Assembly: GCA_963714975.1 (NCBI GenBank)
Contig: CAVQQD010000003.1
Location: forward strand, 782,624 to 846,623
Source of the DNA: an uncultured Gammaproteobacteria bacterium
GTDB lineage: Bacteria; Pseudomonadota; Gammaproteobacteria; JAURND01
Length of the DNA: 64,000 nt
Direction of reading: 5' to 3'
The number at the start of each line of letters is the position of its first letter. The first letter of the stretch is position 1. The notes under the pieces are model-generated. The model did no database searches. It saw only the letters and a program-made list of their open reading frames with translations, and had not been told where the DNA came from. A program made the position numbers and the translations under genes. Positions 4,641 to 53,174 of the stretch are shown here, one piece after another.

Positions 4641-4777
4641 GCTAAGTGATAATAGTGATCTCGATCTGACGCGCAGCACGCGGACATTATAAATCATTGA
4701 TTCAGATACAAAAATTCACGAGAATTCGTCACGAATTCCACGTGACGGTCTCGATTTTAAGGCAATCCCTTGGGATA

Positions 4778-29300: not shown

Positions 29301-29387
29301 CATGCTTCGATGTTTCAGGAACCTTATGTGCAATCTTTAGCTGGTGCAGTATCTGCTGCATTAAATGAGGGACATATGGTTCATTAG
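20367..29387 (+). CDS. Nonribosomal peptide synthetase, two modules with an N-terminal formyltransferase (F) domain: F - partial C - A1 - T1 - C - C(NHxxxDG) - A2 - T2 - TE
   Basis: The N-terminus is Fmt-like (..HDAPLPRYAGVHATSWAILNQE..). A-domain cores appear twice (YTSGTTGKPKGV / TSGTTGNPKSI, NAYGPTE / NEYGPTE, GELYVTGHGLAKGYLNR / GELYIGGVNLARGYLHND, YKTGDLARW / YRTGDQVQW). T domains are LGGDSILA and LGGDSIKA. C domains carry HHLIMDGVSW and NHMILDGWSF. The TE has GWSFGATVAFE. Confidence 0.85.
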   Translation: MAPNIFTCFIIGEDNLHLECAKIIQQQGQQIIGIISAYEAAELWALQQGIPHYASLAAAQEALNKTPFDYLFSIVNAQILPAAILNLPRQLAINFHDAPLPRYAGVHATSWAILNQEKTHGITWHVATETVDAGDILQQVMVPITEDETALSLNLKCYEAALQSFPELVKSLANHSYQRQPQDLRQRTYFGLHQKPAGDGWIDWNASAEDIERLFRATQFGSYPNRFTCPKFKLSFQPDEPSSQQGSWEDEFIITQLELLPEPSTVAPGTIVATTEEYWRVATATCDIAIRQICTLEGDAVILEGEGVLDQAHPSSGLRPPSPTRGEGVKLRAYEARAEISPLSFETLRSSGRMGGRGDLNSGGGDEAYWVSQWQSIEPAKIPFLNFNHLENKSSFLLPLWEKVAEGRMRGEPSEFTPHPPAYPEPVEGAPSPTRGEEVMPGMYERRYYHLQQWTLPTSLQKLLHQHYPTHDFNTLLLALWLVYFYRLGNQPNVGVLLQLPDQNASHPSDLDPGIHARTSLELPYFTVLQDGLHFGQVVSQLQDELQAMQQKGSYLRDIFYRYPILTEVKHAVFTAVVIGEINQLQKSRAALVLGISAKDYSLSWHVDQNCLTQEPYLKTILDQMPGHLETLLTAITTQPETPIADLVLLTPQEQQQILIDWNQTETDYPRDKTIPQLFEEQVQKHPNKIAVCFENQSLTYRELNQQANQLAHYLSQQGVVAETLVAICMERSIEMIIGILGILKAGGAYVPIDPEYPRARIKFIFEDCRAMFVLTQSRLAKKIHAITDGAVITVDKIKNIKIHNKESISLNFDSSQLAYVIYTSGTTGKPKGVLIKHQAVVNTVLAKLRKFAINHSDRILNFSTLSFDASVWEIFPCLFAGATLYLARKENLLPGSKLTHFLEKNKITIATLVPSILAITPPPSTSHLRIIISAGESCSKAVVKQWENVAIFVNAYGPTEFTICAAMAIVGKDANKITIGRPIANTKIFILDDKMQLLPVGITGELYVTGHGLAKGYLNRDALTKSKFIPWALEHGTKEVSQIVYKTGDLARWLPDGNLEYMGRVDEQIKILGCRAELGELEEIAVTYPNILQAAACLDTTAEKNQINLFFVNKSDRNAIDIAKFNRFLKKQVPRYTVPSKIIEVARFPRTVNGKIDKNLLLKKMFFIKQPVIEPPSIKETLLLEIFQKILRIDSLHLEDDFFLLGGDSILAMHLVSKINALGFHCSVRDVFEASTIKKLVIRLHKKNPIEPIALLSKDFSLTPIQRWFFAQSFRHPKQFVQICWLEFQKPINSELLVCCLREIIEWHEIFRLRFKKKEGIWQQYYADKVHESCTDFPVIDNSSLVIQDFANEWVMNVAQDFNFETGYLLKVALVRQQGKITHLLLAAHHLIMDGVSWQIFFDDLQSLYAGSEKEGNNWQKFANSTSYQQWVYALENYIVSSQFKAEQSHWQGVDPFTYIPIDHHQGTNTEKSAEYVTVTLTEEETQRLLRTLAKTHHLNTDEILIALLAKSLMRWCQTDCITLDIERHGREELTTEINLTGTLGWFTSLFPLRLSCNKNLSLLEIIQSVQQQLQTVPRHGISYGLQHYFSGEWKPKSSLHEGENFTSLHAGSRHPAGTTGRIAFNYWGQLDQAFAQNFFTLGELKLLSHPENIRPYLITIDAVIKNKQLQLSWAYSRNFHRHETIQDLAQNFVTDLRNLLTNTQLQKPKISYALTAVQQGLLFEQCRFPQAHYYQAQACWELKLSGHFDAKLLQAACRFLVQRHDVLRTRFVVSGSQEPTQFVEESMEVPCDIIDLQQAKDPEVQLTKFRLADQAALIHWQATSLLRVQIVLLPENRCYLILHFNHMILDGWSFSILVKEFHQYCQAQQQGLALNLPPTYPFADYVHWLQHQSWSASQAFWKNYLAKFNEPVNLKVLGLFDATAEKTELSRCEFVSTPLSSELGQKLQHFCQMQHISLNTFFQALWGILLHRYTQTPDIVTGMTVSGRNIDLPQIQERVGLFINSIPLRQQFVPEITVLAHLQQLQKTITCLIPHSTFPLAAIQACSALSTAEHPLFDSLVVFENYPQATQEEIEFWDPTHYGLTLLITQGSCLKLKLGYDCQRINIERVQNLLEHLQHLLTVVLDNPQQQIARLPLLTTAEYQKLFAPTQTVVVLENVVSCFQKQVVSSPHHPALVWEGQVLSYQDLENQSNQLAHYLATFPHHGEMPIGVCLPRCPELVISLLAIWKMGGAYLPLNPDYPTARLQSIVDSHQVNLLISKNMIQKLTVNHPILLDQVQASICQQPTYYPQHRIQLTDLAAILTTSGTTGNPKSIAQEHKTLANLVHWQHHAFASSAKRRVTQLAAMNFDVSLQEITYALAQGDTLYIVPETIKQSLAELLRFLAINKIQQAFLTTALLEVFCEAALFFKPNLNYLTEIYVAGEALKISGPIKQFFSQNPHIDLVNEYGPTETHVVATHRLSVDTIDNWPYLPPIGRAIDNIRLYVLDAQLQALPIGIPGELYIGGVNLARGYLHNDKLTQEKFVPNPFDPIGTSRLYRTGDQVQWNAAGELLYLGRYDDQVKIRGFRIDPQEIEEALLTHSTIQQCLVTVISEEKSAQLVCYFVPSDKNEDAESLRHPLRKILPDHLIPTYFIRLQSFPLTRVGKIDRQALPRPEQRNAISNTTFRHAYEQQLAELWSEILLCTCIDREVSFWALGGDSIKALRLLFLIEHHLQVTLSLQDFFTAPSIAQMSDRIRLTQADKVLQNQWQTLDFKGCHLPSPLVPLQTTGEKTPLFIIHPIGGTVFAFLDLVRYLGNERPIYGIQDPNVADNNHISFFKNLEELAAYYVYALRSVQPQGPYFLSGWSFGATVAFEMARQILASHEKVEFLGLLDGWAAYPSELQNEKTFKQLIQKQCDDLYQQFHLNQLKNPDFWVELQWQRSDLLWRYKLRPVNTAITLFKAKEGIPGFHESYEKDYGWHQFTTKPVEVYEVPGDHASMFQEPYVQSLAGAVSAALNEGHMVH
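21296..21700. repeat. Cluster of palindromic repeat elements inserted in-frame within the NRPS coding sequence (F-domain/C-domain linker)
   Basis: Three copies of a ~48-bp unit CACCCCTCATCCGGCCTTCGGCCACCTTCTCCCACAAGGGGAGAAGG lie at 21303-21350 and 21614-21686 (direct) and 21551-21598 (inverted). The family-1 core GACGCTTCGCTCCTCAGGACGAATGGGG is at 21404-21431. GGGGGGCAGGGGGGATTT is at 21427-21444. The ORF stays open and translates this stretch as low-complexity peptide (..PSPTRGEGV.. appears twice). Confidence 0.6.
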
Positions 29388-29436
29388 GGTCAAAAATTTA
29401 CTAATACGATGTTTTAACAAAATTTGGAGATTACTT

Positions 29437-31530
29437 ATGCATCAAAAAGATCGACAATTAGCGATTTCTTCGATTTTCGAATATAGCCGTCAGCCTATGA
29501 TTATTTTAGCCTCAGATGGAAAAATAATTGATGCAAATAAGGCTGTTATCGATATGTATGAATTGCGAAACAACACTTTGCAGGGTGCAGATTATTTTGC
29601 TCTTTTAGAAAAATTGGAATTAACTCCTCCAGTAACAGATGAACAGCTAAAAATGCTGCTTCCTGGTAATCCTGCTATAAAGCAAATTGCAAAAATTGGT
29701 GTAAGTAATAAGAATTACGTAATCGAATGGTCTATTCATTCCCTGATTCTAGATTTGGAAAAAATTTATGTCATTTTAGGTACTGATATTACTGCCGAGG
29801 AAGAAGTAAAAGTACTTGAAGAAAGAGGTAGAGAACAAATAAAAATAATGGCTAAATTGAATCAAGAAGTCCTCGGTGTTTCTGCAAAAGAACACGGAGT
29901 GTTGGAGAAATACGCTCATTCCATTCGTCACCATTTAGAAAGCATTATTGCCTGTATGCCAGGAAATATATATTGGATGGATAAAGATTGTAATTATTTG
30001 GGTTGCAATAATAATGTTGCAAGGATTTTGCACCTGAATAATCCTACAGAAATTATTGGGTTAAGTTATGACGATATGGCTAGGCTTAAAGGAGTAGACC
30101 CGGAGGAGTATAAAAAATTCAAAGAAGATGATTTGGAAGTAATACGAACAGGCGAGCCAAAACTAAATACTGAGGAACCCCCCCTTACAGATGAAAATGG
30201 AAATGTAGTATATTTTTTAACTAGTCGTGTTCCATTAACCGATGAACAAAAGGAAGTAACAGGTGTAGTGGGTGTTTCTATTGATATTACGGAACGCAAA
30301 ATCCTAGAACAAAAACTTTCCAAAGCCTTGGAGGCCGCCGAAGCTTCCGATCGTGCTAAAACGGATTTTATCCAAAACATGAGTCACGATGTCAAAACGC
30401 CGCTGGCGGGTATTATTTCCATGGCGCACAGGATCGGCACGCAACTCGAGGAGCCCGATGCTCTCGAAGATAATTATGAAAATGTGCAGATGATTAAAAA
30501 TTCGGGTAGGCAATTGATAGAATTTTTTATGAATTGTTTAGAGATGGGGCGGATTGAAACGGGGGAGGTGGGACTTAGCAATGAAAATTTCAATCCCCAA
30601 ACCATAATGGATCAGCTTGTCGAGATGTTGACCCCTTCCATGAAACAAAAAGGCTTAGGATTTTATTCCACTTATGATCCCGCTATTCCTGAAATGGTGT
30701 ATGCCAGCGCGCCGGGATTTTATCGGATAATTTTAAATTTACTAGGCAATGCGATTAAATTTACTGAGGAAGGCTCGATAAGCATGGACATTCTCTTACA
30801 GAAAACTCGCGATGAAGACACTGGCAAAGACAAAGAGGAACTTTGTTTAAAAATCCGCGATACTGGCATGGGCATTCCCCAAGAAAAAATCGCTAGCATT
30901 TTCGACCGCTTTACGCGCTTAACGCCTTCCTATGAGGGTAAATTTGAGGGCCATGGGATTGGGCTGTATATTGTGCATAAATTTGTCACTTTGATGGGAG
31001 GAAAAATTGATGTGGACAGCGAAGTGGGTAAGGGCAGTTGCTTCACCATCACGTTTCCTTTTTTACCCGCCAAGGCATTCCTGAAACCGAGAGCAGTCAA
31101 GCCTAAGTTTACCAAGCTAGCTCCCCTTGGGGATGCTATCAGCGAGGATGAAGAAACTGGCCCGCGTATTTTGTTGGTCGAGGATAATCGGATGGCTCAA
31201 AAAGGCATGGAATCGATTCTCACGCACTTAGGTTATACGCTCGATATTGTGAATACAGGTAAAAAAGCCCTAGATATTTTTGAATTGGATAAATATGTGC
31301 TGATTATTACCGATATTGGATTAGATGATATGAGTGGGACGACAGTAGCAGCGCATATTCGTACTGCAGAAAAGGGTCGAAAAAATCCAGTGCCGATTGT
31401 GGCTCTGACGGCCCATAATGTTGAAAAAGTGCAAGCGGAATGTGCAGCAGTGGGCATTAATGGGGTATTGGAAAAGCCCCTGACTGAGGAAGCGGCTCAG
31501 GAGGTGTTGGATTGTTTTGTCCAGAAGTAA
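29437..31530 (+). CDS. Hybrid sensor histidine kinase (two PAS domains, HisKA, HATPase, C-terminal receiver)
   Basis: The ORF track opens this frame at 29365, overlapping the NRPS stop. The ATG at 29437 has an SD GGAGA 7 nt upstream, so it is the preferred start. The second PAS (IIACMPGNIYWMDKDCNYLGCNNNVARIL) is paralogous to the PAS of the 17254 HK. The H-box is HDVKTPLAGI. The receiver block is ILLVEDN...DIGLDDMSG...K. Confidence 0.85.
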   Translation: MHQKDRQLAISSIFEYSRQPMIILASDGKIIDANKAVIDMYELRNNTLQGADYFALLEKLELTPPVTDEQLKMLLPGNPAIKQIAKIGVSNKNYVIEWSIHSLILDLEKIYVILGTDITAEEEVKVLEERGREQIKIMAKLNQEVLGVSAKEHGVLEKYAHSIRHHLESIIACMPGNIYWMDKDCNYLGCNNNVARILHLNNPTEIIGLSYDDMARLKGVDPEEYKKFKEDDLEVIRTGEPKLNTEEPPLTDENGNVVYFLTSRVPLTDEQKEVTGVVGVSIDITERKILEQKLSKALEAAEASDRAKTDFIQNMSHDVKTPLAGIISMAHRIGTQLEEPDALEDNYENVQMIKNSGRQLIEFFMNCLEMGRIETGEVGLSNENFNPQTIMDQLVEMLTPSMKQKGLGFYSTYDPAIPEMVYASAPGFYRIILNLLGNAIKFTEEGSISMDILLQKTRDEDTGKDKEELCLKIRDTGMGIPQEKIASIFDRFTRLTPSYEGKFEGHGIGLYIVHKFVTLMGGKIDVDSEVGKGSCFTITFPFLPAKAFLKPRAVKPKFTKLAPLGDAISEDEETGPRILLVEDNRMAQKGMESILTHLGYTLDIVNTGKKALDIFELDKYVLIITDIGLDDMSGTTVAAHIRTAEKGRKNPVPIVALTAHNVEKVQAECAAVGINGVLEKPLTEEAAQEVLDCFVQK

Positions 31531-31861: not shown

Positions 31862-32938
31862 TTAATCAGCCAAATTGCTTATCCATCCCCTTTGAGTCAA
31901 GATCTTAGCTGCTAAGGTGATCTGGCGCTCGGTAAATTGTTTTTTGCGTTTATTCCAGGCATAGGTTTGTTTCACTACATCGTCCAAGGTATGTGCAGAT
32001 TCTTGTTGCACTATCCAATGTACCGTAGATAATAACTCTAATCCAAATGATGATTCGAATCCTTCAACCAATTTTACAACCTGATCAAAACGTGTCCGAG
32101 TTTCGGCATGATTTTCAAGAAAAGCGCTAGCTGCTTCAACTGCACCCTGCCGCAACCTGAGCTGCTTGTTTGGATTATCACCACCGTCGACGTATCCTGA
32201 GATCAAATGTCCTTCAATGTCATTTAGTACATGACGCAAATTTTCAGCGTAAGGGCCATAGAGTCCTTTTACATAACGAAGTCGCAGTGGTTCACCAGCT
32301 ACCTGCATAAAATACATTAATTTTTGAACCTCTAGCAGCGTAACAAAAGGATCAAGTAAAGCGTTTAGATAGCGATGCATCAGTTGAACCAAAGTAGCTC
32401 GTCCCGCTGTCATTTTAGGAGCTTTTCGACTATAGGTTGTTTTTTCTCTGACAAACTCTGGTTCATAGATGATAATTTGGACATTTTTTAAGGGTTTTAA
32501 TGCCGCTATGATGAGTGGCTTAATTTGTGCCCATTTTAGTCCACCCAATCCGCTACCAAGGGGAGGGATTGCAATCGAGTGAATATTGTATTTACTGATG
32601 ACTGTGGCTAACGACTTAAGACCAGCTTCAATGTCTTCAATTCGGCTCTTATCTTTCCAATGTCGCTTAGTGGGGAAGTTGATGATATAGCGGGGAGTTC
32701 CTGGGTAAGTGGTTTCATACACAAACATGTGGCCTGGCTGCACTTCTGCGTGCTTACAGGCAGTGACATAAGCTTTGAAATTATCTGGAAATGTATTTTT
32801 GAATTGCAAAGCAATGCCACGACCCATGATGCCGACACAATTCACTGTGTTCACAATGGCTTCTGCATTTTCTTGCAAAATATCGCCTGTTTTGTACTCA
32901 ATCACTCTCATCCACCTCGTTAATATTAGTAGTACCAC
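31862..32938 (-). CDS. darG: DarG-like antitoxin: N-terminal macro domain (ADP-ribose hydrolase) plus C-terminal DarT-interaction domain
   Basis: The macrodomain motifs AIVNTVNCVGIMGRGIALQF and AIPPLGSGLGG are present. At 358 aa it matches DarG size, and it lies immediately downstream of and overlapping the darT-like ORF. Confidence 0.65.
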   Translation of the reverse strand: MVLLILTRWMRVIEYKTGDILQENAEAIVNTVNCVGIMGRGIALQFKNTFPDNFKAYVTACKHAEVQPGHMFVYETTYPGTPRYIINFPTKRHWKDKSRIEDIEAGLKSLATVISKYNIHSIAIPPLGSGLGGLKWAQIKPLIIAALKPLKNVQIIIYEPEFVREKTTYSRKAPKMTAGRATLVQLMHRYLNALLDPFVTLLEVQKLMYFMQVAGEPLRLRYVKGLYGPYAENLRHVLNDIEGHLISGYVDGGDNPNKQLRLRQGAVEAASAFLENHAETRTRFDQVVKLVEGFESSFGLELLSTVHWIVQQESAHTLDDVVKQTYAWNKRKKQFTERQITLAAKILTQRGWISNLAD

Positions 32939-33597
32939 TCAGGTATTATTTCAATGGATTGTGGATACTTAGTGGTAGCCTTGCTCAACTCCAGCGCCAC
33001 TTGTTGATATGTCGCACTTGATTTTACACCAATGCGATCGACCAGACACCATGGAAAAGAATGTTCCAGCAAAAATTCTGCTTGCTTACCTTCTTTTAAT
33101 ATTGGATTGCTATCACCACCCCACTGCTTAGCCAAAACAGCCTCCCAGTTAATTTCATTTAACCGAGTAAGGTCACAACGATCCTCAAAGTAATAAGAAC
33201 CTGCATTTGACAAAGTAAAGACCCAACGCTTCTTATTTGTTGCTGCCCAATTTATCGTACGAAGCAGGTCAGTTTCAAGGTGTATAATTGGTTCTTATCC
33301 GCCCTCGTAAATTAAATCCGGGTTCCCTTGGTGAATCACGTAAAGCATAATTGAGCGTGGACAGAAATAAAAAGGTACACATTGGCCTATATATAAGTCA
33401 GGATAACTCTTTAACTTAAGTTCCTTCAGACGACGCTGTTTGATTTTATTCATACCGATACTAGTGCCTAAAGATGAATATTTTGTAATCTGAGCGTCGC
33501 ACCAAAGATGATTGTCGGCGATGATAGAAGGCAAACGATCTACATGTAAAATATGATAAATTTTGGGATGTTCTGGAATAGCCATAGTTTCTCCCAT
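32926..33597 (-). pseudogene. darT: DarT-like (DUF4433) DNA ADP-ribosyltransferase toxin gene, disrupted; the two ORF-track pieces are 33295..33597 and 32926..33213
   Basis: The N-terminal piece (PEHPKIYHILHVDRLPSII...VPFYFCPRSIMLYVIHQGN) and the C-terminal piece (DLTRLNEINWEAV...KQAEFLLEHSFPWCLVDRIGV) both match conserved DarT blocks, including the catalytic-Glu AEFL motif. They sit in different frames, separated by ~80 nt. Confidence 0.6.
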
Positions 33598-33654
33598 GGG
33601 CTAGCGTTTAATAGCAATTTAGGCGCTCAATTTTCACGAATTGGTTAATTCTAC

Positions 33655-33905
33655 ATTGTTTCATTATTAGTTGGCTGCTCCTTCAGCTGTTTTATTCCCG
33701 CTGCCGTCAGCATAGCATTTGTCGCTTTTTCAACAGAAGCTCGCACAGGGTCTAGATCCAATCGTGCATAAATAGCCGTTGTTTGGGGCGACTTATGATT
33801 TAAGGATTTTCCAATGATAGTGAGAAGCGCCTGTACGAGCTTGCCAGCTTCCTAGGGTACGTCTTAGATCATGTATTCGTAGATCAGCAATACCAGCATC
33901 TTCAA
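33655..33905 (-). pseudogene. Tyrosine integrase C-terminal fragment (frameshifted remnant)
   Basis: Minus-strand translation gives ...IADLRIHDLRRTLGSWQARTGAS.. and, after a frameshift, ..IGKSLNHKSPQTTAIYARLDLDPVRASVEKA... These match the integrase box II and the C-terminal tyrosine region. There is no N-terminal part. Confidence 0.45.
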
Positions 33906-33949
33906 TTTTGCTAAGCAAGAAGGTGAGATTTCTGCCAATACAGCTGCCT

Positions 33950-34406
33950 ACTGCAAAGCAAGGTCACGCTTACCAGAAGAAGCTTTATCAGGATTAACAA
34001 GAGAGTCAGCAGAACAATTGGAAGGACGAACTCCATTAGAATGGTGATGGAGAGAACGGCATGTAAAATTAATTGATGGTTCATGTATATCAATGCCAGA
34101 TACTCCTGAAAATCAAGCCACCTATCCACAACCTGATACTCAAACTAAAGGAGTCGTTGGTTTGTGGAAATTAATTTGTTAGCCATCAAAAAAACCATGA
34201 AAATGGATGTTTTACGTGGGAAATCGCCTAAAATGGTACACAAGGAGGTTTGGGCGCATTTACTGGTTTATAACTTGGTTAGAAAAATAATGGCTCAAGC
34301 AGCAATCAAGCATAATAAAAATCCCCGCGAATTGAGCTTCAAATTAGCATTGCAAATTATTTTTGCATTTCGTCAGGCAAAAATTTTTTCTGAAAAAACG
34401 AAATAA
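33950..34406 (+). pseudogene. IS4-family transposase remnants (N-terminal and C-terminal fragments; the DDE core is deleted)
   Basis: Plus-strand translation of ~34030-34180 gives ...VKLIDGSCISMPDTPENQATYPQP.TQ.KGVVGL..., an IS4 N-terminal motif. The 80-aa ORF 34164..34406 ends ...EVWAHLLVYNLVRKIM..., an IS4 C-terminal motif. A stop lies between them. Confidence 0.5.
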
Positions 34407-34481
34407 TTTACAGTAAAATGCTTCAAGCAATTGCATATAAAAAAGTTGGAAATCGACCGGGGCGTAGTGAACCGCAAATGG

Positions 34482-34802
34482 TTAAGCGTCGGCCAAAATC
34501 TTTCCCTCGGCTGCAAAAACCAAGGAAATCCTACTATAAAAAAGTGAGCGCTTAAAATGACTATTTCTTAAGTTAGTGCCATTGGGTTTATTATCATCTA
34601 TCAAGCATTGTTTCCATTTATGCTTATTCAGCAAGGGTTGACAATAATCCACATGGGATCTAAATTCATCTTGAGAAATGATATCGAATCCATCTTCTCC
34701 GTTTCTGATCTGGCCTTTAGAGTCATGTGTACTAATCAAACAATCATCATAATCCAAACTAAGGGCTAAAATTTTTTTTGGCATACTATTGTATCTCTTC
34801 AT
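34482..34802 (-). CDS. Hypothetical small protein
   Basis: A 106-aa ORF in an AT-rich mobile-element-remnant region. No recognisable domain. Confidence 0.25.
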   Translation of the reverse strand: MKRYNSMPKKILALSLDYDDCLISTHDSKGQIRNGEDGFDIISQDEFRSHVDYCQPLLNKHKWKQCLIDDNKPNGTNLRNSHFKRSLFYSRISLVFAAEGKILADA

Positions 34803-35121
34803 CCTACGTTGTCATTTCATTGTTAAAAAATCATTTGAAGACCCCATGGACCCTATACAAGATTTTTTGTGCAAAATGAACAAAAATATGGCGAGAATAT
34901 TACACTATCCAGCAAATGTGTCAATTTAATGGGCGAAATATTGAAAGGGTGAGTAATGAAGTATCATTAGACGACATGAAAATCTTAGTGGAATGCGCGA
35001 CTTTTGCGCGATTCGGTGCTGCTCCACTCTGCTTTATTAGGCATTTGCAGTGGGGTGCCCGCCTAATACCTGCCAATAAGGTGTGCCTTCTACTGTTACA
35101 ATAATAATTTACCCCGTGGGT

Positions 35122-35148
35122 AAAAAGTTCCCCCTTAAGGGGGAACTT
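35122..35148 (-). terminator. Rho-independent terminator for the repeat-peptide gene
   Basis: Stem GTTCCCCC / GGGGGAAC (with an extra A-T pair) and a TTAA loop. On the minus strand the hairpin is followed by TTTTTA (plus-strand A-run at 35122-35126). It lies ~40 nt downstream of the stop at 35187. Confidence 0.5.
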
Positions 35149-35186
35149 TGCACACCACTTCTTCATTTTTTCCCTAAAAGACCCTA

Positions 35187-35447
35187 TTAAGGATAATAGG
35201 GATGATACGGATGTACGTACGGGTGGTAGTATGGATGATATGGGTAATAAGGATGATAGGGATGCACGTACGGATGGTAGTATGGATGATACGGATAATA
35301 GGGGTGATAGGGATGCACGTACGGATGATAGTACGGGTAATAAGAAACGGAAACACCAAGCTGGGCATAGCTCCCTAATGACGTAACCGCCAATAGACCA
35401 GCAGCCAAGGCCAAGGCAATCCGCTTTTTTAAAGAACCAAGTTTCAT
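35187..35447 (-). CDS. Secreted His/Tyr/Pro-rich tandem-repeat peptide
   Basis: Signal peptide MKLGSLKKRIALALAAGLLAVTSLGSYAQ, then YPYYHPYVHPYHPY repeated three times (42-nt DNA repeats), ending ..HPYYP. Followed by a terminator. Confidence 0.55.
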   Translation of the reverse strand: MKLGSLKKRIALALAAGLLAVTSLGSYAQLGVSVSYYPYYHPYVHPYHPYYPYHPYYHPYVHPYHPYYPYHPYYHPYVHPYHPYYP

Positions 35448-35681
35448 AGCAACCTCCTCTAAATCTTACTTGTGCCTTAAGTATAGTATTTTTTCGGGGG
35501 TTAATAGGGAATATTTGTATTTTTCTTGCACAATCTGTGCTTATTGGTAGGGAAGTTAGTCTATTCAGCCTACCGCTTCTGTAGTCTGGTTGAGATCTTT
35601 GAATAGTGTGCCAAATTCACAAATGAAAGCCAGATTAACAGCAGGCCCTAGTTAGTGTCAGTGGCAGGAAAGCAAAATTTT

Positions 35682-38600
35682 TTAGAAGGAGGCATAGGAA
35701 GTAGTGCTGCCTGTTGCCGTTGCGTTATCTCGTTTATTTTCTGCTACCGTTTTCAACACCCGATCAATAGTATTTGAGAGACGAGGGTGCAGGAAGTAAT
35801 TAGGTATTTTGGGATGCCGCAAGGCATTGCCCTCTGTTATTGCTTTGGGCAACCATGCGAAAAAATTTCTTGTTTCTTCAGCCGATACGTTATTGTCACG
35901 AAGTGTTTGCTCGAAATTTCCTGTTTTTTTGCTATTGGCTAACGCAGACAGAAAATGATTTGCTAACTGATACGTCAACGGCGCATTTTTCTCTAATAAT
36001 ATTCTTTCGCCTTTCATGCTGTGCCACAGCGTAAATATATCTGCTTCATTTATGGGTTGTTCTGAAGTGCAATGATCCATTAAATTTTTTAATGAGCCAT
36101 TGCGCTGCAATAACCATGCTAGTGAAAATGGGTCAGGTTCTGTTTGCGAGATATTAACCACTGTATTAATAAATTCATTGTATATTACATGCAGGTCGAG
36201 TAAATTTAGGTCCTGCAGTAAACTACGCCCATGGATTAAGTTATGCTGTAATGCGTCTAAGTGATCAAGTGATCCTTGCGAATAATAACGTTTTAATACC
36301 TGGGCAGTAAAATACATGCATCCTTGCTCAGCAAACATGCGCAGCGTGGGCGTGATTTTCTTAGTACTGATTGAAGTAATATCTTCTTCATGTTTTATTG
36401 CTGTAATAAAACGCCGGATTGCGGTTAAATTTTCACTAAATTGTGGAAATTTATCTTTGGAATCTTTTGGAAAAAATGTCGTCGAGCTGGTAGAGCTACT
36501 CCTTCTCCTGATACTAGAGGGAGTTGTTTTAGCATCCATGGGGATGGATGGTGAATAAATTCCTCGTAATTCAGATTCTATAGAAGCTCTTCTTTTCCTG
36601 TTACTATCAGGAGTGCTTCTAGATGCTATCGGGGGAGGGGTAACTGAATAAAGCTTTAAGGAATCGGATTCTGTAGACTTTCTTCTAGAAGTAGCTGTAG
36701 TTCTTCTTTGTTTTATTTCTTTTCCATCGGTGGACTGCAATGAAAAAGATTTGGTTCGCGGTCTTTCGGTGTGCGAACCTGTTAACTTTTTTTTCGAATT
36801 TTCATACTTCGGACTTAATGCTTTAAGTTTATCAGATATTGATTTTAACCGTGACTCCACGAAAGAGAAGTTTTTAAAGCTAATTTCATCTATGGCTTGT
36901 TGCTCATTAATCGCTTGTTTTTTTAATGCATCTGCATTTTCAAGAATTTCAGTTGTATCTCGTACAAATGTGCTATAATCATCGTAATAACGAGAAGTGC
37001 TATACTCGCTTGGCATAAATTCCATTCTACTATCTGAAATTTTTTTTGCTAGAGTAGCATACTCTTGCTCGGTATCTTCTATTATTTTTATTAAATCATT
37101 GATTTTTTCCTGCGGCACGGTTTTTTCCATAGTGTCGATTTTTTCTTTCTGTGAGTCATTCAATGTGGAAGAGGGTGGTGACAAAGGTGGTTGCACTGAA
37201 GTTTGATCTGTATCATCGGATGGAAGAGGTAGTTTCTGTGTTTTGGATTTTCGTTTTGGTGTCGGTTTTTGTTCACTGGTTCTTATCTCTTGCTGAGGTT
37301 TATGTTGTTTAAGGTTGGGCTTATTTTTAGATTTATTTAAAAAACAAAAGTATATAAAAGCGCCTATCCCTGCCACTACTGTCAATAGGGAAACGAAAAT
37401 AAAGGGGTTTTCATTTTTTGAAGTCTGGTGCTCGCTAGTTTCACTACTGTTAGGCTCAATCTGTGGATTTTCATAACACAGAAAGCTTGAATTTCTATGT
37501 GTTTCGATATAATTTTCTGTCAAAGGAGTTCTATAGAGATTCACAGATTGGTCGCGTTGTGTTTCAGCATAATTCTTTAGTAATTCAATCATAGGTAATG
37601 CAATCGTAGGAGGACGTCCAGAGAATTGAAGTGTACCAAGCGCTGTTTGGTCTTTCTTATTTTTTTTGTTAATAATATATGGGTTTTTTCTTATTATTTT
37701 TTTAACAAAATCAACGTTATGAAATAACACTGCCACATGCAAAATAGTATCTCCGTTGTTGTTTTTTACGTTAAGATCGATCCTGTCATCAGCTAATATT
37801 AATTTAGTGATAGCCATCCTATTAACAGTTTTTACAGCATAAAATAACGCAGTTTCGCCAACATTATCTTGCAAATTAATGTCCGTTCGAGTATTTCTTA
37901 GAATTGATTTTACTATGTTTTTTTGTCCTTTTAAGACAGCAACCATTAGTGCCGTCCGACTCTTTTCATTTTTTAGATTAGGGTTGGCACCTTTTCTCAG
38001 TATTTTTTTTATAATATCGTGGGAAGCAGAATATATAGCTATATGTAAAAGCGTATTTCCATCCCTATCTTTCTGATCTAGGTTAATTCTTTTATCATCT
38101 AACAACAAGTTAACAATATCTAAATCTAGATCTAGAGAGTTTAATTTCAAACTTACAAATATAGCAGAGTTATTTTGGTAGCCAAGGATATTAATGTCGG
38201 TATGAGGCTTATTCAGGAGCAGTTCTATTATGCCCCTATGTCTTTTTATAGTAGCATACATGAGCGCCGTAAAACCTGCGGTATCTTGTAGATTAGGATC
38301 CGCGCTTTTTTCCAATAATTTATCCACAATGTTTAAGTAACCATAATTTGCTGCCATCATTAATGCTGTCTCTCCTTTATTATTTTGTTTATTAATATCA
38401 GTGACTTGTTGTTCTAGTAGGTCAAAAGCGATTTTTGGTTTATGATCTTCAAGTGCCTGCATTAAGGGTGTATTTCCCTTGTTATCTTCTGTTTTCGTTG
38501 ATTGTTGTTTCGCATCTACTGTAGAAAAGAAGTAAGTATGTGTAGCAATAGCCAATGGTCTAATGCGCTCAGAGGGGTAAGTAGACAACTTGATGAGTTT

Positions 38601-39041
38601 GTTTTTTGTACGATAAATTAAGTGATCTAATGCGGCGTTAGTTTTACGCAGTAAGGTTGATTGCCTCACCCAGGTAATACCCAATAGGGGAAGAGAGATA
38701 GCTATATTTTTAGGGAAGGGAGACGTAGGGCCATTAATATAATGCTTGATCCCATGTAAGCAATTGATACATAACTCGGTATCCCAGTAATCCGGTGTAC
38801 GTGCAATATAATCTTGTAACGCCGTTATTAGATGTTTTACTGCGACATCATCGTTTTTTTCTATCTGGCCGTTACCTGCTATCGTATAATATTTGGAGAG
38901 TTTAGCAGCGACAAATTCAACTAAAGGTTGCACATCTTCGTCGGTTAAATCTTCATCTTCCTGAAAAATAAATTCTTGTAGGTTGAATTTATCTTGACTG
39001 CTTAGTATAAACTTAAAAGTTGCGGGTTCACTATCTTGCAT
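35682..39041 (-). CDS. Large ankyrin-repeat protein (about 9 ANK repeats) with one TM segment, a long Ser/Thr/Lys/Arg-rich region and a C-terminal domain of unknown function; effector-like
   Basis: ANK consensus blocks are present (GNTPLMQALE..., GETALMMAANYGYLNIVDKLLEKSADPNLQD..., GNTLLHIAIYSASHDIIKKILRKGANPNL...). The TM segment is FIFVSLLTVVAGIGAFIYFCF. The region is very AT-rich. Confidence 0.8.
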   Translation of the reverse strand: MQDSEPATFKFILSSQDKFNLQEFIFQEDEDLTDEDVQPLVEFVAAKLSKYYTIAGNGQIEKNDDVAVKHLITALQDYIARTPDYWDTELCINCLHGIKHYINGPTSPFPKNIAISLPLLGITWVRQSTLLRKTNAALDHLIYRTKNKLIKLSTYPSERIRPLAIATHTYFFSTVDAKQQSTKTEDNKGNTPLMQALEDHKPKIAFDLLEQQVTDINKQNNKGETALMMAANYGYLNIVDKLLEKSADPNLQDTAGFTALMYATIKRHRGIIELLLNKPHTDINILGYQNNSAIFVSLKLNSLDLDLDIVNLLLDDKRINLDQKDRDGNTLLHIAIYSASHDIIKKILRKGANPNLKNEKSRTALMVAVLKGQKNIVKSILRNTRTDINLQDNVGETALFYAVKTVNRMAITKLILADDRIDLNVKNNNGDTILHVAVLFHNVDFVKKIIRKNPYIINKKNKKDQTALGTLQFSGRPPTIALPMIELLKNYAETQRDQSVNLYRTPLTENYIETHRNSSFLCYENPQIEPNSSETSEHQTSKNENPFIFVSLLTVVAGIGAFIYFCFLNKSKNKPNLKQHKPQQEIRTSEQKPTPKRKSKTQKLPLPSDDTDQTSVQPPLSPPSSTLNDSQKEKIDTMEKTVPQEKINDLIKIIEDTEQEYATLAKKISDSRMEFMPSEYSTSRYYDDYSTFVRDTTEILENADALKKQAINEQQAIDEISFKNFSFVESRLKSISDKLKALSPKYENSKKKLTGSHTERPRTKSFSLQSTDGKEIKQRRTTATSRRKSTESDSLKLYSVTPPPIASRSTPDSNRKRRASIESELRGIYSPSIPMDAKTTPSSIRRRSSSTSSTTFFPKDSKDKFPQFSENLTAIRRFITAIKHEEDITSISTKKITPTLRMFAEQGCMYFTAQVLKRYYSQGSLDHLDALQHNLIHGRSLLQDLNLLDLHVIYNEFINTVVNISQTEPDPFSLAWLLQRNGSLKNLMDHCTSEQPINEADIFTLWHSMKGERILLEKNAPLTYQLANHFLSALANSKKTGNFEQTLRDNNVSAEETRNFFAWLPKAITEGNALRHPKIPNYFLHPRLSNTIDRVLKTVAENKRDNATATGSTTSYASF

Positions 39042-48610: not shown

Positions 48611-49045
48611 CTAGGTAGTTTGTTTATTAAAAGTGTCTGATCCGATGGTGTTCGCATCCCAATTAGCTTGTACAGGATCATCTGCTTTTCTAGCTACTAA
48701 CCAAATCGTTTTTAATTCGTCATTATTTCGGTTGAAATTACCCGTCATTGCGACCACACTATTGCAAGCAGGATAATTGACAATCAGTGCGATAGCGTTG
48801 CCATTGTAATAACCTGTTACTGGAACTGGCTGCCCAATCGCAGCTTTGCAATTTCCCACTGCGGTGATGAAGCTACCGGTTAAACTGCCTGCATTTGCTT
48901 GCTCGCTATTCCAAGTCAAAGTTAGGGTGGAACCACGCTGATTTTTGTAGGTGATTGAATTGCTGGGTGCGGCGCTAATTGCCGTGCTGCCCATCACTAA
49001 GCAGCTCACCATGCTGATGACTATTTTGGTTCTGATTTTTTTCAT
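48611..49045 (-). CDS. Avidin/streptavidin-family (biotin-binding beta-barrel) secreted protein
   Basis: Start at MKKIRTKIV with SD AAGGAGA and a signal peptide. The block LTLTWNSEQ..SLTGSF.TAVGN...TGYYNGNAIALIVNY...WLVARKADDPVQANWDANTIGSDTFNK parallels streptavidin GTWYNQLGS..LTGTYESAVGN...[25 protein letters not shown]. Confidence 0.75.
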   Translation of the reverse strand: MKKIRTKIVISMVSCLVMGSTAISAAPSNSITYKNQRGSTLTLTWNSEQANAGSLTGSFITAVGNCKAAIGQPVPVTGYYNGNAIALIVNYPACNSVVAMTGNFNRNNDELKTIWLVARKADDPVQANWDANTIGSDTFNKQTT

Positions 49046-49164
49046 TTTTTCTCCTTGAGGATATGATGGAAAAGATAGGCAACATGCTAGCACAATCTAT
49101 CCAGCTATAGAATATCGGCATTTTACTATTTCGATATTGTCGCACTTGCCCTAAATTCGTGGAT

Positions 49165-50929: not shown

Positions 50930-52159
50930 ATGAAGTTTATAGTGTTTTTTATTGGATTGAAGCAACTTGAAAATTATTCATTTAACCGAATCCAAGATAG
51001 AGAAAAATATCGTTTTGTTTGCATTATGTCAGAGAGCGATAGAAATCGTATGCCTGAAAATTATAGCGATTTATTCGATAAAATCTATAGCACACCAAGT
51101 CAAGAAAAATTACCGGATCTAGATTTGGAAGGAGTTATAGCAATTGTCAATCAAGAAATTCATGGAGCTACAGATTTGGAAAAAATATCTATCATTTGCC
51201 AAGATGAGACCCATGTTATGGTTGCTGCGCAATTAAGAACTTTATTTAACATTGGATCTGGCATAAGATTTAATGAAATCAAGCCCTTTAGAAATAAAAT
51301 GTTAATGAAGGAAATTTTAGCAAAATCGAACATCAGAGTCCCACGAAATTTCCCACTTAATCACACCAACGCTGATTTCAATAAAATAGTAGAAGTCTTG
51401 GGTCTGCCGTTTATTATGAAGCCTATAGATTCTTCTGGAAGTTTTGGCGTCAAAAAAATCCAGAATGCTGAAGAATTCACTAAGATGATCGAAGCAATTG
51501 ACAATTTAAATTTAGAATCCCATGAGGTGGAAGAATTTATTTCAGGAAAATTATTCCATTGGGATAGTGCAGCGAAAAATAAAAAATTGTTATTTATGGA
51601 GGGATCTTTATATAACCGTCCTCCCTTAGAATTTTTACAGGGAAATACCTTAGGAAGTATTCCACTGCTTCACGACGATCCTTTTCGCTCAAAGTTGGTA
51701 AAATTTGCTACTGAATCCCTGTTTGCTCTTGGTATGCCGGAAGGTCTCCAGCATATGGAAATTTTCCTGAATGACCAAGGTGACTACATATTTCTCGAGG
51801 TAGCTGCTAGAGCGCCTGGCTTCATTGCGTCTAAAGTTTATGCGAATACTTTTAATCAGAATCCACTAGACATTGATTTAAACATAGAGGCGGGAATAAA
51901 TTTTATAGAGACAGGGGATGTCTTAGGGCCATCATTTTGGGCAATTTTCCCCCTGGAGGATGGGGTAATTAAAGAATTAATTGAACCAGAACTGGAAAGT
52001 AATTATCAAATATCCTGGAGAGTCCAAGTGGGTCAAACGACACAAAAATCAAAATCTCTTTCGGACATAAGCGCTCTGGTTTTTGTTTCCAATCCAAATT
52101 ACGAGAAGTTAAAGAAAGATTTTCAAAAAATTTCAGTACATAAGGCAACTGTCTATTAA
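50930..52159 (+). CDS. ATP-grasp domain protein (carboxylate-amine ligase-like)
   Basis: The central block LGLPFIMKPIDSSGSFGVKKIQNAEEF...EEFISGKLFHWD fits the ATP-grasp fold. The start is uncertain; the alternative ATG at 51026 (MSESDRN) is possible. Confidence 0.6.
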   Translation: MKFIVFFIGLKQLENYSFNRIQDREKYRFVCIMSESDRNRMPENYSDLFDKIYSTPSQEKLPDLDLEGVIAIVNQEIHGATDLEKISIICQDETHVMVAAQLRTLFNIGSGIRFNEIKPFRNKMLMKEILAKSNIRVPRNFPLNHTNADFNKIVEVLGLPFIMKPIDSSGSFGVKKIQNAEEFTKMIEAIDNLNLESHEVEEFISGKLFHWDSAAKNKKLLFMEGSLYNRPPLEFLQGNTLGSIPLLHDDPFRSKLVKFATESLFALGMPEGLQHMEIFLNDQGDYIFLEVAARAPGFIASKVYANTFNQNPLDIDLNIEAGINFIETGDVLGPSFWAIFPLEDGVIKELIEPELESNYQISWRVQVGQTTQKSKSLSDISALVFVSNPNYEKLKKDFQKISVHKATVY

Positions 52160-52563
52160 GGTTTATTTTGGCTTTTTAAAAAATCAGGTGGAGGCCATCC
52201 TGTTTCAGAAAAATAATCAAAATAGTTTATGGTAATTTCTTCCCCTGGGTTAATATCTTTAATTGCCGTAGCGATAATTATTTTGTTTTTCTTTTGGCAA
52301 CGAGTATTTGGGTTTAAGCTATGATTTAAATAACGTGCGCCACCAATTTGAAAAATATTTAATTGGTTATATTTTCTATCATAAGCTCCGTAGAGGTCCT
52401 TTTTTTCAAACTCACCAGCTAGACTTTTATCAATTACAGCAGTGCCAAATACAAAGCCTGCAGGTATGAATTTTTTGCTGAATAAACCCATACCATGAGT
52501 CTTTGATTTTTTAACCTCCACCACTCCGTTGCTTAAAATAAACGAATTTTCTCTAAAACTCAT
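52156..52563 (-). CDS. Small SET-domain protein (putative protein-lysine methyltransferase)
   Basis: GMGLFSKKFIPAGFVFG, ARYLNHSLNPNTRC and ITINYF match SET motifs (GxG, NHS, post-SET-like Y). The ORF track starts at a TTG (52608). The first ATG, at 52563, gives MSFRENSF.... Confidence 0.7.
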   Translation of the reverse strand: MSFRENSFILSNGVVEVKKSKTHGMGLFSKKFIPAGFVFGTAVIDKSLAGEFEKKDLYGAYDRKYNQLNIFQIGGARYLNHSLNPNTRCQKKNKIIIATAIKDINPGEEITINYFDYFSETGWPPPDFLKSQNKP

Positions 52564-52598
52564 AATAATTACCTCATTATAAGTATAGTAGAATTCTT

Positions 52599-52748
52599 GT
52601 GAGCTCAAACTGAACTGAAGTCCCGCCGCCCGCCTACGGGGTCCTGCCGCGCGGACAACCCGCCGTGCTCGGCTACGAGCACGGCGGGTTGTCCGCGCGG
52701 CAGGACCCCGTAGGCGGGCGGCGGGACTTCAGTTCAGTTTGAGCTCAC
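52599..52748. repeat. Perfect 150-bp palindrome (73-bp arms, 4-nt GCTA centre), GC-rich
   Basis: Left arm 52599-52671 GTGAGCTCAAACTGAACTGAAGTCCCGCCGCCCGCCTACGGGGTCCTGCCGCGCGGACAACCCGCCGTGCTCG. Right arm 52676-52748 is its exact reverse complement. The arms are ~70% GC in a ~35-40% GC neighbourhood. Confidence 0.9.
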
Positions 52749-52970
52749 AAAATTTTTAATAAGAGATGAATATCCAGTCCGAGCCTGGTTGGCGGATAGA
52801 AATTGAGCCGTTAAGTGCTTCTTGAGTAGGGGAATAGAATGAACAAATTTGGTTGCCCACCTTGTCATAGGAGCTAGGCTGTAGACCTGGAGCGAGATCG
52901 ACGAAGTTTTTTTCCCATTCCCTGGGCTAATAAAGTAGCTGTTAACATATTGAGACTGACGCCTTCCTCT

Positions 52971-53174
52971 TTAGCTCGCATAGCTAGTGCTGTATGAAGA
53001 CTTTTCGGTAAGCGCAATCGCCATTGACCACTCTTTTGTCCTAAAAGTTACATGACTAGTTCCAGGCTGTCGGTGTTCTAAGCCATATCTATTTGCTATT
53101 GTTTTGATATTTTCTATATTCGAGTCTCGAGGATTATTACGCATCTTTTCTAGTATTTTTTCAGTTTTGCTCAT
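52971..53174 (-). CDS. HicA-like toxin-family small protein, possibly degraded
   Basis: IKTIANRYGLEHRQPGTSHVTFRTKE parallels the HicA pattern L..lG....nGSHh.lr. A different frame just downstream, at about 52850-52960 (boundaries approximate), encodes MRAKEEGVSLNMLTATLL, which resembles antitoxin RHH C-termini. Confidence 0.3.
   Translation of the reverse strand: MSKTEKILEKMRNNPRDSNIENIKTIANRYGLEHRQPGTSHVTFRTKEWSMAIALTEKSSYSTSYAS

What the first reader, a model, noticed from the sequence alone, without database searches (positions are those of the whole stretch)
52599..52748. Perfect 150-bp GC-rich palindrome immediately upstream of the SET-domain gene
The 73-bp arms are exact reverse complements around a 4-nt centre (GCTA). 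The arms are ~70% GC, embedded in ~35-40% GC DNA, and flanked by GAGCTC (SacI) at both ends. Perfect palindromes of this length are normally unstable in bacteria because of SbcCD cleavage. Their persistence implies a function or a very recent event. Candidate functions are a protelomerase-type hairpin resolution site, a recombinase target, the end of a hairpin-ended element, or a strong structured transcriptional barrier. It sits about 36-45 bp upstream of the SET-domain methyltransferase start and next to HicA-like remnants. A fold-back assembly artefact must also be considered.
Basis: seen in the sequence. Interest (0 to 1): 0.8.

Follow-up and report, generated by a model that had tools for sequence, protein, structure and literature searches.

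The report
Palindromic relic of an IS66-family transposon
The 150-bp GC-rich perfect palindrome is real, but it is best read as the two long terminal inverted repeats of an IS66-family insertion sequence joined head to head with the transposase gene missing, which makes it ordinary selfish DNA rather than a telomere site or an assembly artefact.

Summary
The palindrome is confirmed. Its arms are perfect around a GCTA centre. It is 69% GC in 36-40% GC DNA and occurs once in the window.

The outermost 23-24 nt of each arm, GTGAGCTCAAACTGAACTGAAGT, is the conserved terminal inverted repeat (TIR) of a subgroup of IS66-family insertion sequences.
- The same motif bounds complete 2.1-2.7 kb elements that encode IS66-type DDE transposases in other genomes and metagenomes.
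- It also bounds 234-bp and 907-bp non-coding derivatives in a Chthoniobacterales MAG.
- Ten insertion contexts of one such IS show that GTGAGC...GCTCAC is the exact element boundary, and they show 8-bp target duplications.
- Three close relatives, including one in a Legionellaceae MAG, have unusually long TIRs of 72-123 nt at 93-98% identity, with subterminal modules richer in GC than their contigs.

Two such TIRs joined without the interior give the object seen here. The "SacI sites" are simply part of the TIR motif.

Several points remain unexplained:
- there is no 8-bp target duplication;
- only one copy is seen;
- the inner 50 nt of each arm (82% GC) has no match anywhere;
- no transposase gene lies in the window.

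My verdict is a MITE-like deletion derivative, a new member of a known kind, of low to moderate interest.

The parts
52599..52748 (.). Whole element: a 150-bp non-coding, MITE-like derivative of an IS66-family insertion sequence (two TIR arms plus a 4-nt centre).
   Evidence: The arms are perfect. The boundaries GTGAGC...GCTCAC are the exact IS termini defined by 10 insertion contexts of a related IS. No ORF lies inside the element.
52599..52621 (+). Left terminal repeat core, GTGAGCTCAAACTGAACTGAAGT, the presumed transposase recognition end.
   Evidence: 24 of 24 identical to ends in Chthoniobacterales MAG loci L004, L008, L010 and L011. 23 of 24 identical to L007, L012 (Coxiellaceae MAG) and L013 (Legionellaceae MAG IS). 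It matches all 16 columns that are invariant across the 13 aligned ends, the window arm among them.
52726..52748 (-). Right terminal repeat core, the exact reverse complement of the left one.
52622..52671 (+). Left inner arm: 50 nt at 82% GC, the subterminal part of a long TIR. Its sequence is an orphan.
   Evidence: GC content. A 23-mer from this segment is absent from 185,579 species genomes and from viral contigs, and has one chance hit in metagenomes. It is analogous to the subterminal TIR modules, richer in GC than their contigs, in L021, L020 and L013.
52676..52725 (-). Right inner arm, the exact reverse complement of the left inner arm.
52672..52675 (+). Centre GCTA, the only asymmetric bases. 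It is either the loop of the hairpin or the remnant of the deleted interior.
52576..52603 (-). Sigma-70-like hybrid promoter match facing the SET gene. The -35 hexamer CTCACA lies in the terminal bases of the element, and the -10 hexamer TATAAT lies in the flank.
   Evidence: Consensus scan, 10 of 12 matches. This is a match only and is untested. The implied transcription start would lie at or after the GAGG Shine-Dalgarno sequence.
52156..52563 (-). Context: the SET-domain gene. Its start codon lies 35 nt beyond the left end of the element.
   Evidence: Pfam SET, E = 1.7e-13; ORF list.
52874..53017 (-). Context: a HicB-family antitoxin C-terminal remnant upstream on the same strand, 125 nt from the right end of the element.
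   Evidence: Pfam HicB, E = 7.9e-7, covering profile positions 23-48 of 51.

Best explanation
The palindrome is a miniature, non-autonomous derivative of an insertion sequence from a distinct subgroup of the IS66 family. Members of this subgroup end in GTGAGCTCAAACTGAA.TGAAG, and some carry very long, nearly perfect terminal inverted repeats whose subterminal parts are richer in GC than the surrounding DNA.

In the window only the two 73-nt ends remain. They are joined inner-end to inner-end around 4 nt (GCTA), so the whole element reads as a perfect palindrome.

What is shown:
- the identity of the termini with bona fide IS ends;
- the exact boundaries;
- the existence of long-TIR relatives and of other miniature derivatives.

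What is inferred:
- The element arose by loss of the roughly 2-kb interior of a long-TIR parent, or by inverted duplication of one end.
- The GC-rich inner arms are lineage-specific subterminal TIR sequence.
- It could still be moved in trans by a cognate transposase.
- As a by-product it forms a very stable hairpin in any transcript that enters from the decayed hicB side. It may also contribute a -35 element to a promoter for the SET gene.
For: - An 18-mer from the arm terminus found 11 loci in 185,579 species genomes. Eight of them extend to 22-24 nt of identity or lie at the ends of IS elements.
- L002 is a 2.68-kb contig bounded by inverted copies of the motif. It encodes a 543-aa IS66 DDE transposase (Pfam E = 1.1e-33; NCBIfam IS66 equivalog 227.8 bits against a cutoff of 180).
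- Transposase homologues lead to full elements bounded by the same motif: L013 (Legionellaceae MAG, 2387 bp), L014-L019, L020-L023 and L024-L033.
- In L024-L033 one IS sits in about 7 different flanks, and the flanks diverge exactly outside GTGAGC...GCTCAC. The 8-bp direct repeats CATCTCAT and CATTTTTT are recovered across contigs, and GATTTATT flanks the L014 element.
- Long TIRs occur in relatives: L013 has 123 nt at 98%, L021 has 97 nt at 98%, and L020 has 72-83 nt at 93%. Their subterminal parts are 53-61% GC in contigs of 42-44% GC.
- Other miniature derivatives carry the identical 24-nt end: L011 (234 bp) and L010 (907 bp).
- An alignment of 13 ends shows 16 invariant positions in the first 21 nt, and the window arm shares all of them.
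- The topology is that of an IS with its interior removed. The termini face outward, so this is not a circle junction (direct reading).
Against: - No 8-bp or other target-site duplication flanks the window element. The left flank is GAATTCTT and the right flank is AAAATTTT.
- Only one copy is present in 64 kb.
- A 23-mer from the 82% GC inner arm has no true match in genome, metagenome, viral, plasmid or phage collections. No parent IS and no sister copy have therefore been found.
- No IS66-type transposase gene lies in the window.
- Similarity of the inner arm to the subterminal module of L021 is only 15 of 17 nt and in the opposite orientation.
- The rest of the source genome could not be inspected.
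Confidence: 0.85

Rival explanations
1. The transposon-derived hairpin has been co-opted as a regulatory element. It could act as a transcriptional insulator or roadblock, or as an RNase III-processed leader, between the decayed hicB locus and the SET-domain effector gene. It could also donate a promoter to that gene. This reading is compatible with the transposon origin but claims a host function.
For: - The element sits 35 nt upstream of the SET start codon, on the strand downstream of the hicB remnant.
- A transcript through it folds at -203 kcal/mol, z = -23.6.
- A 10-of-12 sigma-70-like match uses CTCACA from the element end as the -35 hexamer and a perfect TATAAT in the flank.
- Coxiella MITEs are reported to carry promoters and to give rise to sRNAs (PMC5896051).
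Against: - No conservation can be shown, because no orthologous locus was available for comparison and the element is single-copy.
- No U-tract follows the stem on the minus strand, and the terminator scan did not flag the site.
- The predicted transcription start would fall at or after the Shine-Dalgarno sequence.
- There are no expression data.
Confidence: 0.12
2. The palindrome is an assembly, polishing or library artefact. It could be a fold-back chimera or adapter-derived sequence. Alternatively, a truly imperfect inverted repeat may have been homogenised to perfection when reads mapped ambiguously to both arms.
For: - Perfect 73-75-nt arms are unusual, whereas the long TIRs of relatives are 93-98% identical.
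- Read data are not available.
- The inner arm is an orphan sequence.
Against: - Fold-back artefacts duplicate local sequence. Here the arms are compositionally foreign, and the two flanks are unique and unrelated.
- The arm termini are identical to natural IS ends in independent assemblies from other phyla.
- There is no similarity to plasmid or phage records.
- The protein collection records the window's Lhr protein on a single contig of 866,452 bp.
- Polishing could at most have erased a few arm mismatches, which would not change the interpretation.
Confidence: 0.05
3. The palindrome is a telomere-resolution (protelomerase) site, or the replicated junction of a hairpin-ended linear element.
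For: Only the long dyad symmetry supports this reading.
Against: - No protelomerase, phage or linear-plasmid genes lie in the window.
- The centre GCTA is the one non-palindromic part, whereas resolution sites are symmetric at the cleavage centre (established knowledge of the N15, PY54 and TelA sites).
- The outer ends are transposon termini.
- No related sequence occurs in phage or viral collections.
Confidence: 0.01

Closest known systems
IS66 family insertion sequences, for example ISPpa5a and ISPpa7 (PMC3281130), and the single-ORF ISBst12 group, for example ISDge4 (PMC12898284)
   Same: - The full-length relatives encode transposases that pass the NCBIfam IS66 equivalog cutoff.
- Their ends begin GTGA/GTAA, like ISDge4 (GTGACT.../GTAACT...).
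- They make 8-bp target duplications, as reported for ISPpa5a, ISPpa7 and ISDge4.
   Different: - The window element has no transposase gene and is only 150 bp.
- Published IS66 inverted repeats are about 14-35 bp. This subgroup includes members with TIRs of 72-123 nt that carry subterminal modules richer in GC than their contigs.
- The accessory genes differ from the classical tnpA/tnpB pair. There is a roughly 72-aa YgiT/MqsA-type zinc-finger ORF after the transposase gene, and sometimes a DruA/Dam-like ORF before it.
- No target duplication flanks the window copy.
Bacterial MITEs, in particular Coxiella burnetii QMITE1 and QMITE2 (PMC5896051)
   Same: - They are small non-coding elements with TIRs that fold into very long stable hairpins. 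QMITE2 is 150-190 bp.
- They occur in an intracellular member of the Legionellales, in intergenic regions and at gene ends.
- They can affect neighbouring genes.
   Different: - QMITEs occur about 50 times per genome, and full-size QMITE2 has 7-9 bp (7-11 nt in the abstract) direct repeats. The window element is single-copy as far as can be seen and has no direct repeat.
- No sequence relationship to QMITEs was tested or is claimed.
- Here the parent IS family is identified, whereas none is named for the QMITEs.
TIR-bounded miniature elements in the Chthoniobacterales MAG DATEBV01 (L011, 234 bp; L010, 907 bp)
   Same: They carry the identical 24-nt terminal motif in inverted orientation at both ends and have no transposase.
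   Different: - Their interiors are AT-rich and unrelated to the window element.
- Their two ends differ by 2-3 mismatches.
- They are not whole-length palindromes.
Protelomerase target sites (telRL of N15, PY54 and phiKO2; Agrobacterium TelA site)
   Same: Dyad symmetry.
   Different: - Those sites are much shorter, about 25-60 bp.
- They are symmetric at the centre.
- They are linked to a protelomerase gene.
- None of these features applies here.

Membership tests
[quoted passage not shown] | Small (roughly 50-600 bp) and without coding capacity | tested here: met
   The element is 150 bp and no ORF lies inside it. Only ORF ends of neighbouring frames overlap it, by 10-15 nt.
[quoted passage not shown] | Terminal inverted repeats matching those of an autonomous IS family | tested here: met
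   The terminal 22-24 nt match the ends of IS66-family elements L002, L013, L014 and L020-L033.
[quoted passage not shown] | Flanked by a target-site duplication of the length made by the parent family (8 bp) | tested here: not met
   The left flank is GAATTCTT and the right flank is AAAATTTT. No direct repeat of 2-12 bp is found at offsets 0-2.
[quoted passage not shown] | Several copies in the genome | tested here: inconclusive
   The window holds a single copy. The inner-arm 23-mer and the end 18-mer gave no further locus attributable to this genome. Whether the source genome is among the searched species representatives is unknown.
[quoted passage not shown] | Cognate transposase present in the same genome, allowing mobilisation in trans | not testable with these tools
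   The window has none (tblastn; Pfam scans). The rest of the genome could not be fetched.
IS66 family (for the parent and related elements) | IS66-type DDE transposase | tested here: met
   P0210 scores 211.9 bits and the L002 ORF 227.8 bits against NF033517, whose cutoff is 180. Pfam DDE_Tnp_IS66 also matches. These are relatives, not the window.
IS66 family (for the parent and related elements) | 8-bp target duplication and ends starting GT(A/G)A | tested here: met
   GATTTATT flanks L014. CATCTCAT and CATTTTTT are recovered across L024-L033. All ends start GTGAGC, GTAAGC or GTGAGT. The published comparison is ISDge4 (PMC12898284).
Protelomerase / hairpin-telomere resolution site | Protelomerase gene linked to the site, with symmetry at the cleavage centre | tested here: not met
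   No such gene is found among the 37 ORFs scanned, which include 31 of the 32 window ORFs of 150 aa or more; the 162-aa ORF 6942-7430 was not scanned. The centre GCTA is not palindromic.
Intrinsic (Rho-independent) terminator | GC-rich hairpin immediately followed by a U-tract | tested here: not met
   The scan did not flag the site. On the minus strand the stem is followed by GAAUUCUAC. On the plus strand it is followed by A2 then U5 after the 75-bp perfect stem (A4 then U5 after the element end GCTCAC).
REP / BIME-type repetitive extragenic palindromes | Short (about 20-40 bp) imperfect palindromes present in many copies | tested here: not met
   The sequence is single-copy, 150 bp long, and has no other copy in the window or in the collections.
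Known structured RNA families (Rfam) | A match at or above a family's gathering score | tested here: not met
   Only a tRNA at 2898-2970 was found in the window.

The most novel reading that the evidence does not exclude
The IS66 subgroup found here has long, near-perfect TIRs with GC-enriched subterminal modules, a MqsA-like zinc-finger ORF and a recurrent CAT signature in its flanks. It may use its extended ends as functional modules, for example for transposase or host-factor binding, or as built-in bidirectional transcription barriers. On that reading the window's 150-bp perfect palindrome would be its minimal active substrate. Alternatively, it would be an exapted insulator or promoter that controls a eukaryote-like SET-domain effector gene in an uncultured Legionellales-like bacterium.
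Probability: 0.12. Interest if true: 0.45.

Novelty: new member of a known kind. Interest (0 to 1): 0.25.

Why it matters
This result removes a tempting but wrong lead. The palindrome is not a hairpin telomere, a cloning scar or a fold-back artefact. It is a transposon relic.

It also shows that a "SacI-flanked, GC-rich perfect palindrome" can be explained by comparing only its outermost 18-24 nt with other genomes.

Some modest positive value remains.
- It points to an apparently undescribed IS66 subgroup with TIRs of 72-123 nt that is spread across Legionellales, Verrucomicrobiota, Acidobacteriota and other phyla.
- It gives a natural example of a 150-bp perfect palindrome that a bacterial chromosome appears to tolerate.
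- It places a mobile-element end directly upstream of a eukaryote-like SET-domain gene, where it could influence that gene's expression.

Tried and rejected
- **Exact look-ups of window proteins.** Looking up the SET protein, the ATP-grasp protein, TrpRS and the 100%-identical Lhr protein P0001, in order to fetch the source contig or sister strains, found nothing on record. No empty-site or read-level comparison was therefore possible. The cluster look-up showed only that the genome is in NCBI/ENA on a contig of 866,452 bp.
- **Inner-arm 23-mer scans.** There were 0 hits in the species genomes and 0 in viral contigs. The single metagenome hit (L001) is a chance 24-nt match inside a 65% GC contig with no extension.
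- **blastn of the palindrome against plasmids and phages.** No match. tblastn of the Legionellaceae transposase against plasmids also gave no match.
- **Rfam and tRNA scans.** Nothing was found at the site.
- **Target-site duplication.** None was found at any length from 2 to 12 bp.
- **Homology of the GC-rich inner arm to the subterminal TIRs of relatives.** Only a 15-of-17 match to L021 was found, in the opposite orientation. Nothing was found for L013 or L020. I treat this as a hint only.
- **Group II intron 5' end, Tn7-like or Mu-like ends, and an IS circle junction.** I considered these from memory and rejected them. The motif occurs as inverted pairs around IS66-type transposase genes, and the termini face outward.
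- **Literature search for the motif and for IS66 in Legionella.** Nothing relevant was found. PMC95320 is not held.
- **HicA identity of ORF 52971-53174.** No support was found.

Full report
**1. The observation**

The sequence at 52599-52748 is as described. Exact complementarity extends two bases further on each side. That gives arms of 75 nt, at 52597-52671 and 52676-52750, around the non-palindromic centre GCTA. Beyond that, complementarity is only 7 of 11 in AT-rich DNA, although one search reports 86-nt arms at 95%.

The 150 bp is 69% GC. The neighbouring kilobases are 36% and 40% GC, and the window is 42.7%. The GC richness is confined to the inner 50 nt of each arm, at 82%. The outer 23 nt are 43.5% GC.

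As single-stranded DNA the region folds at -120 kcal/mol, against -31.6 +/- 3.3 for shuffles (z = -26.9). The next-longest perfect hairpin stem in the window is 13 bp. There is no second copy in the window, no Rfam family at the site and no tRNA there.

**2. Context**

All of the following lie on the minus strand, read in the direction of transcription.
It has no significant Pfam or NCBIfam match.
- A HicB-family C-terminal fragment at 53017-52874 (E = 7.9e-7).
- The palindrome.
- A SET-domain gene, 35 nt further on, whose likely ATG is at 52563 (Pfam SET, E = 1.7e-13).

The window is rich in eukaryote-like genes. These include WD40, Ser/Thr kinases with ankyrin repeats, Sel1, Macro and large ankyrin proteins. 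It also carries an NRPS.

The Lhr helicase gene next door is at most 67% identical to anything else. The named hits further down the list are 62-64% identical Legionella proteins, so the host is a deep-branching Legionellales-like bacterium. The same protein is recorded at 100% identity from a contig of 866,452 bp in NCBI/ENA. The contig itself could not be retrieved.

**3. Is the arm found elsewhere?**

A 23-mer from the GC-rich inner arm has no match in 185,579 species genomes or in viral contigs. It has one chance 24-nt match in a 65% GC metagenome contig. blastn against plasmids and phages found nothing.

An 18-mer from the outer end of the arm (TGTGAGCTCAAACTGAAC) gave 11 genome loci. By my arithmetic about 17 are expected by chance. 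Three look like chance matches. The other eight do not:
- Five loci lie in one Chthoniobacterales MAG and one in a Coxiellaceae MAG. They match the window over 23-24 of 24 nt (GTGAGCTCAAACTGAACTGAAGT).
- Two loci (L002 and L005) carry a close variant at the end of a transposase-bearing element.
- Several loci have a second, inverted copy. L002 is a whole 2.68-kb contig bounded by the motif. L010 is a 907-bp element. L011 is a 234-bp element.

**4. What the motif is**

The 543-aa ORF in L002 is an IS66-family DDE transposase (Pfam E = 1.1e-33; NCBIfam equivalog 227.8 bits against a cutoff of 180).

Its homologues form a large family of transposases of about 500 aa, mostly on IS-sized contigs. 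Every member whose DNA I fetched is bounded by the same motif in inverted orientation:
- L013 (Legionellaceae MAG, 2387 bp);
- L014-L019 (2712 bp);
- L020-L023 (2.1-2.45 kb);
- L024-L033.

In L024-L033 one IS lies in about seven different contexts. The flanks diverge exactly outside GTGAGC...GCTCAC, which fixes the termini.

The element in L014 is flanked by the 8-bp direct repeat GATTTATT. In L024-L033 the 8-bp repeats CATCTCAT and CATTTTTT are recovered between the left flank of one contig and the right flank of another. By my arithmetic about 5e-4 such matches are expected by chance. So the family makes 8-bp target duplications, and metagenome contigs are often chimeric through the IS.

Ends starting GTGA/GTAA and 8-bp duplications are what is published for IS66-family elements (ISDge4, PMC12898284; ISPpa5a and ISPpa7, PMC3281130).

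An alignment of 13 ends shows 16 invariant positions in the first 21 nt. The window arm, one of the 13, shares all of them.

**5. Why a whole-length palindrome, and why GC-rich?**

TIR length varies within this subgroup. It is 21-37 nt in L022, L023, L014 and L002. It is 72-83 nt (93%) in L020, 97 nt (98%) in L021 and 123 nt (98%) in the Legionellaceae element L013.

The long TIRs consist of the conserved terminal motif followed by lineage-specific subterminal sequence. That sequence is richer in GC than the surrounding contig, and in L020 and L021 it looks hairpin-prone when read directly:
- 60.5% GC in a 43.8% contig for L021;
- 61% in 44% for L020;
- 53% in 42% for L013.

Two such ends joined without the interior give exactly the window's object. 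It has outward-facing termini, a moderately AT-rich outer 23 nt, a GC-rich inner part and a tiny asymmetric centre. The GAGCTC "SacI sites" are part of the invariant motif.

The window's inner arm shows only a weak 15-of-17 similarity to a module in L021 (0 of 300 shuffles reached its score). I treat this as a hint, not as evidence of homology.

**6. What does not fit**

- There is no target duplication. The flanks are GAATTCTT and AAAATTTT.
- Only one copy is visible.
- No parent with these inner arms was found in any collection.
- No transposase gene lies in the window.

The element therefore meets the structural definition of a MITE, being small, non-coding and bounded by IS-type TIRs. It does not meet the duplication or copy-number criteria. 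A single-copy internal-deletion derivative fits better. One flank may later have been rearranged, because decayed genes lie next to it. Whether the exact identity of the arms reflects a parent with perfect TIRs, an inverted duplication of one end, arm-to-arm correction or assembly polishing cannot be decided without reads.

**7. Consequences for the host (inferred)**

Any minus-strand transcript that enters from the hicB side would contain a hairpin. The 261-nt stretch that includes it folds at -203 kcal/mol. There is no U-tract after it on that strand, and the terminator scan did not flag it.

The terminal CTCACA of the element and a perfect TATAAT in the flank make a 10-of-12 sigma-70-like match facing the SET gene. 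The implied transcription start would fall at or after the Shine-Dalgarno sequence, so this remains a consensus match only. MITEs in the related pathogen Coxiella burnetii are long palindromes that carry promoters and give rise to sRNAs (PMC5896051), so such effects are plausible but unproven here.

**8. Rivals**

- Protelomerase or hairpin-telomere site. This is disfavoured. The window has no such gene, the centre is asymmetric, and the termini are transposon ends.
- Fold-back or adapter artefact. This is unlikely, because the arms are not local sequence and their ends occur in independent natural assemblies.
- Co-option as a regulator. This is possible in addition to the transposon origin, but it has no support beyond position.

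**9. Verdict**

The object is a MITE-like relic of an IS66-family element that belongs to a subgroup with unusually long TIRs. It is a new member of a known kind and of low to moderate interest.

Noticed in passing
L013:2592-4978; L020:226-2375; L021:245-2694 (related loci): This subgroup of IS66-family elements has TIRs of 72-123 nt at 93-98% identity, with subterminal modules richer in GC than their contigs. Published IS66 inverted repeats are only about 14-35 bp. The subgroup is spread across Legionellaceae, Coxiellaceae, Chthoniobacterales, Acidobacteriota and other MAGs.
   Followed up: partly
Flanks of IS ends in L007, L010, L012, L013, L020, L021, L022, L023; L024-L033: The trinucleotide CAT, often ACAT, recurs at positions -12 to -10 outside 9 of about 22 element ends. 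In the IS of L024-L033 the recovered 8-bp duplications themselves start with CAT (CATCTCAT, CATTTTTT). This may be a target-site preference. It remains unexplained, and the window copy lacks it.
   Followed up: partly
L013:4518-4736; L002:2289-2648; L014:1129-2004; L002:167-898: These IS elements carry accessory ORFs unlike the classical IS66 tnpA/tnpB pair. A roughly 72-aa YgiT/MqsA-type zinc-finger ORF follows the transposase gene. Some members have a DruA-like or Dam-like ORF upstream.
   Followed up: no
L012:4830-5130 (Coxiellaceae MAG): A solo copy of the IS end overlaps the last codons of a 293-aa ORF and supplies ...VSSN-stop. It is followed by a second nested inverted-repeat element (TTCATAACCCCTCA...TGAGGGGTTTATGAA) with GC-rich hairpins. 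In the window, the same end motif closes the 44-aa ORF 52734-52868 with ...FVSSN-stop.
   Followed up: no
L004, L007, L008, L010 (Chthoniobacterales MAG DATEBV01): Solo IS ends abut another repeat family built on CCACAAAAGAACACAAAGAAACACAAA in inverted pairs. The genome appears rich in nested miniature elements.
   Followed up: no
window 3426-16605, 31862-39041, 60864-63170: There is a dense set of eukaryote-like genes. They include Sel1, a 670-aa WD40 protein, two Ser/Thr-Tyr kinases (one with ankyrin repeats), a Macro-domain protein, a 1119-aa ankyrin protein and a further kinase. A tyrosine-recombinase-like gene lies at 10538-11407 and tRNA-Asn at 2898-2973. This suggests an effector-rich island in a Legionellales-like genome.
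   Followed up: partly
window 20367-29387: A 3006-aa NRPS has an N-terminal formyltransferase domain, two adenylation and two condensation domains and a thioesterase. It is followed by a hybrid PAS histidine kinase/response regulator at 29365-31530.
   Followed up: no
window 6000-10000: A block of 50-57% GC sits in a window of about 42% GC. It contains two ORFs without Pfam matches (7246-8007 and 7988-9736) next to the WD40 gene, and is probably foreign DNA.
   Followed up: no
window 48611-49093: A 160-aa ORF has an avidin-family domain (E = 1.7e-14), which is uncommon in bacteria of this group.
   Followed up: no
window 52874-53174: The hicB-like fragment is only the C-terminal ribbon-helix-helix part (47 aa) and overlaps the end of the upstream 67-aa ORF. 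The locus looks like a deletion-fused toxin-antitoxin remnant. The HicA identity of the upstream ORF could not be confirmed.
   Followed up: partly
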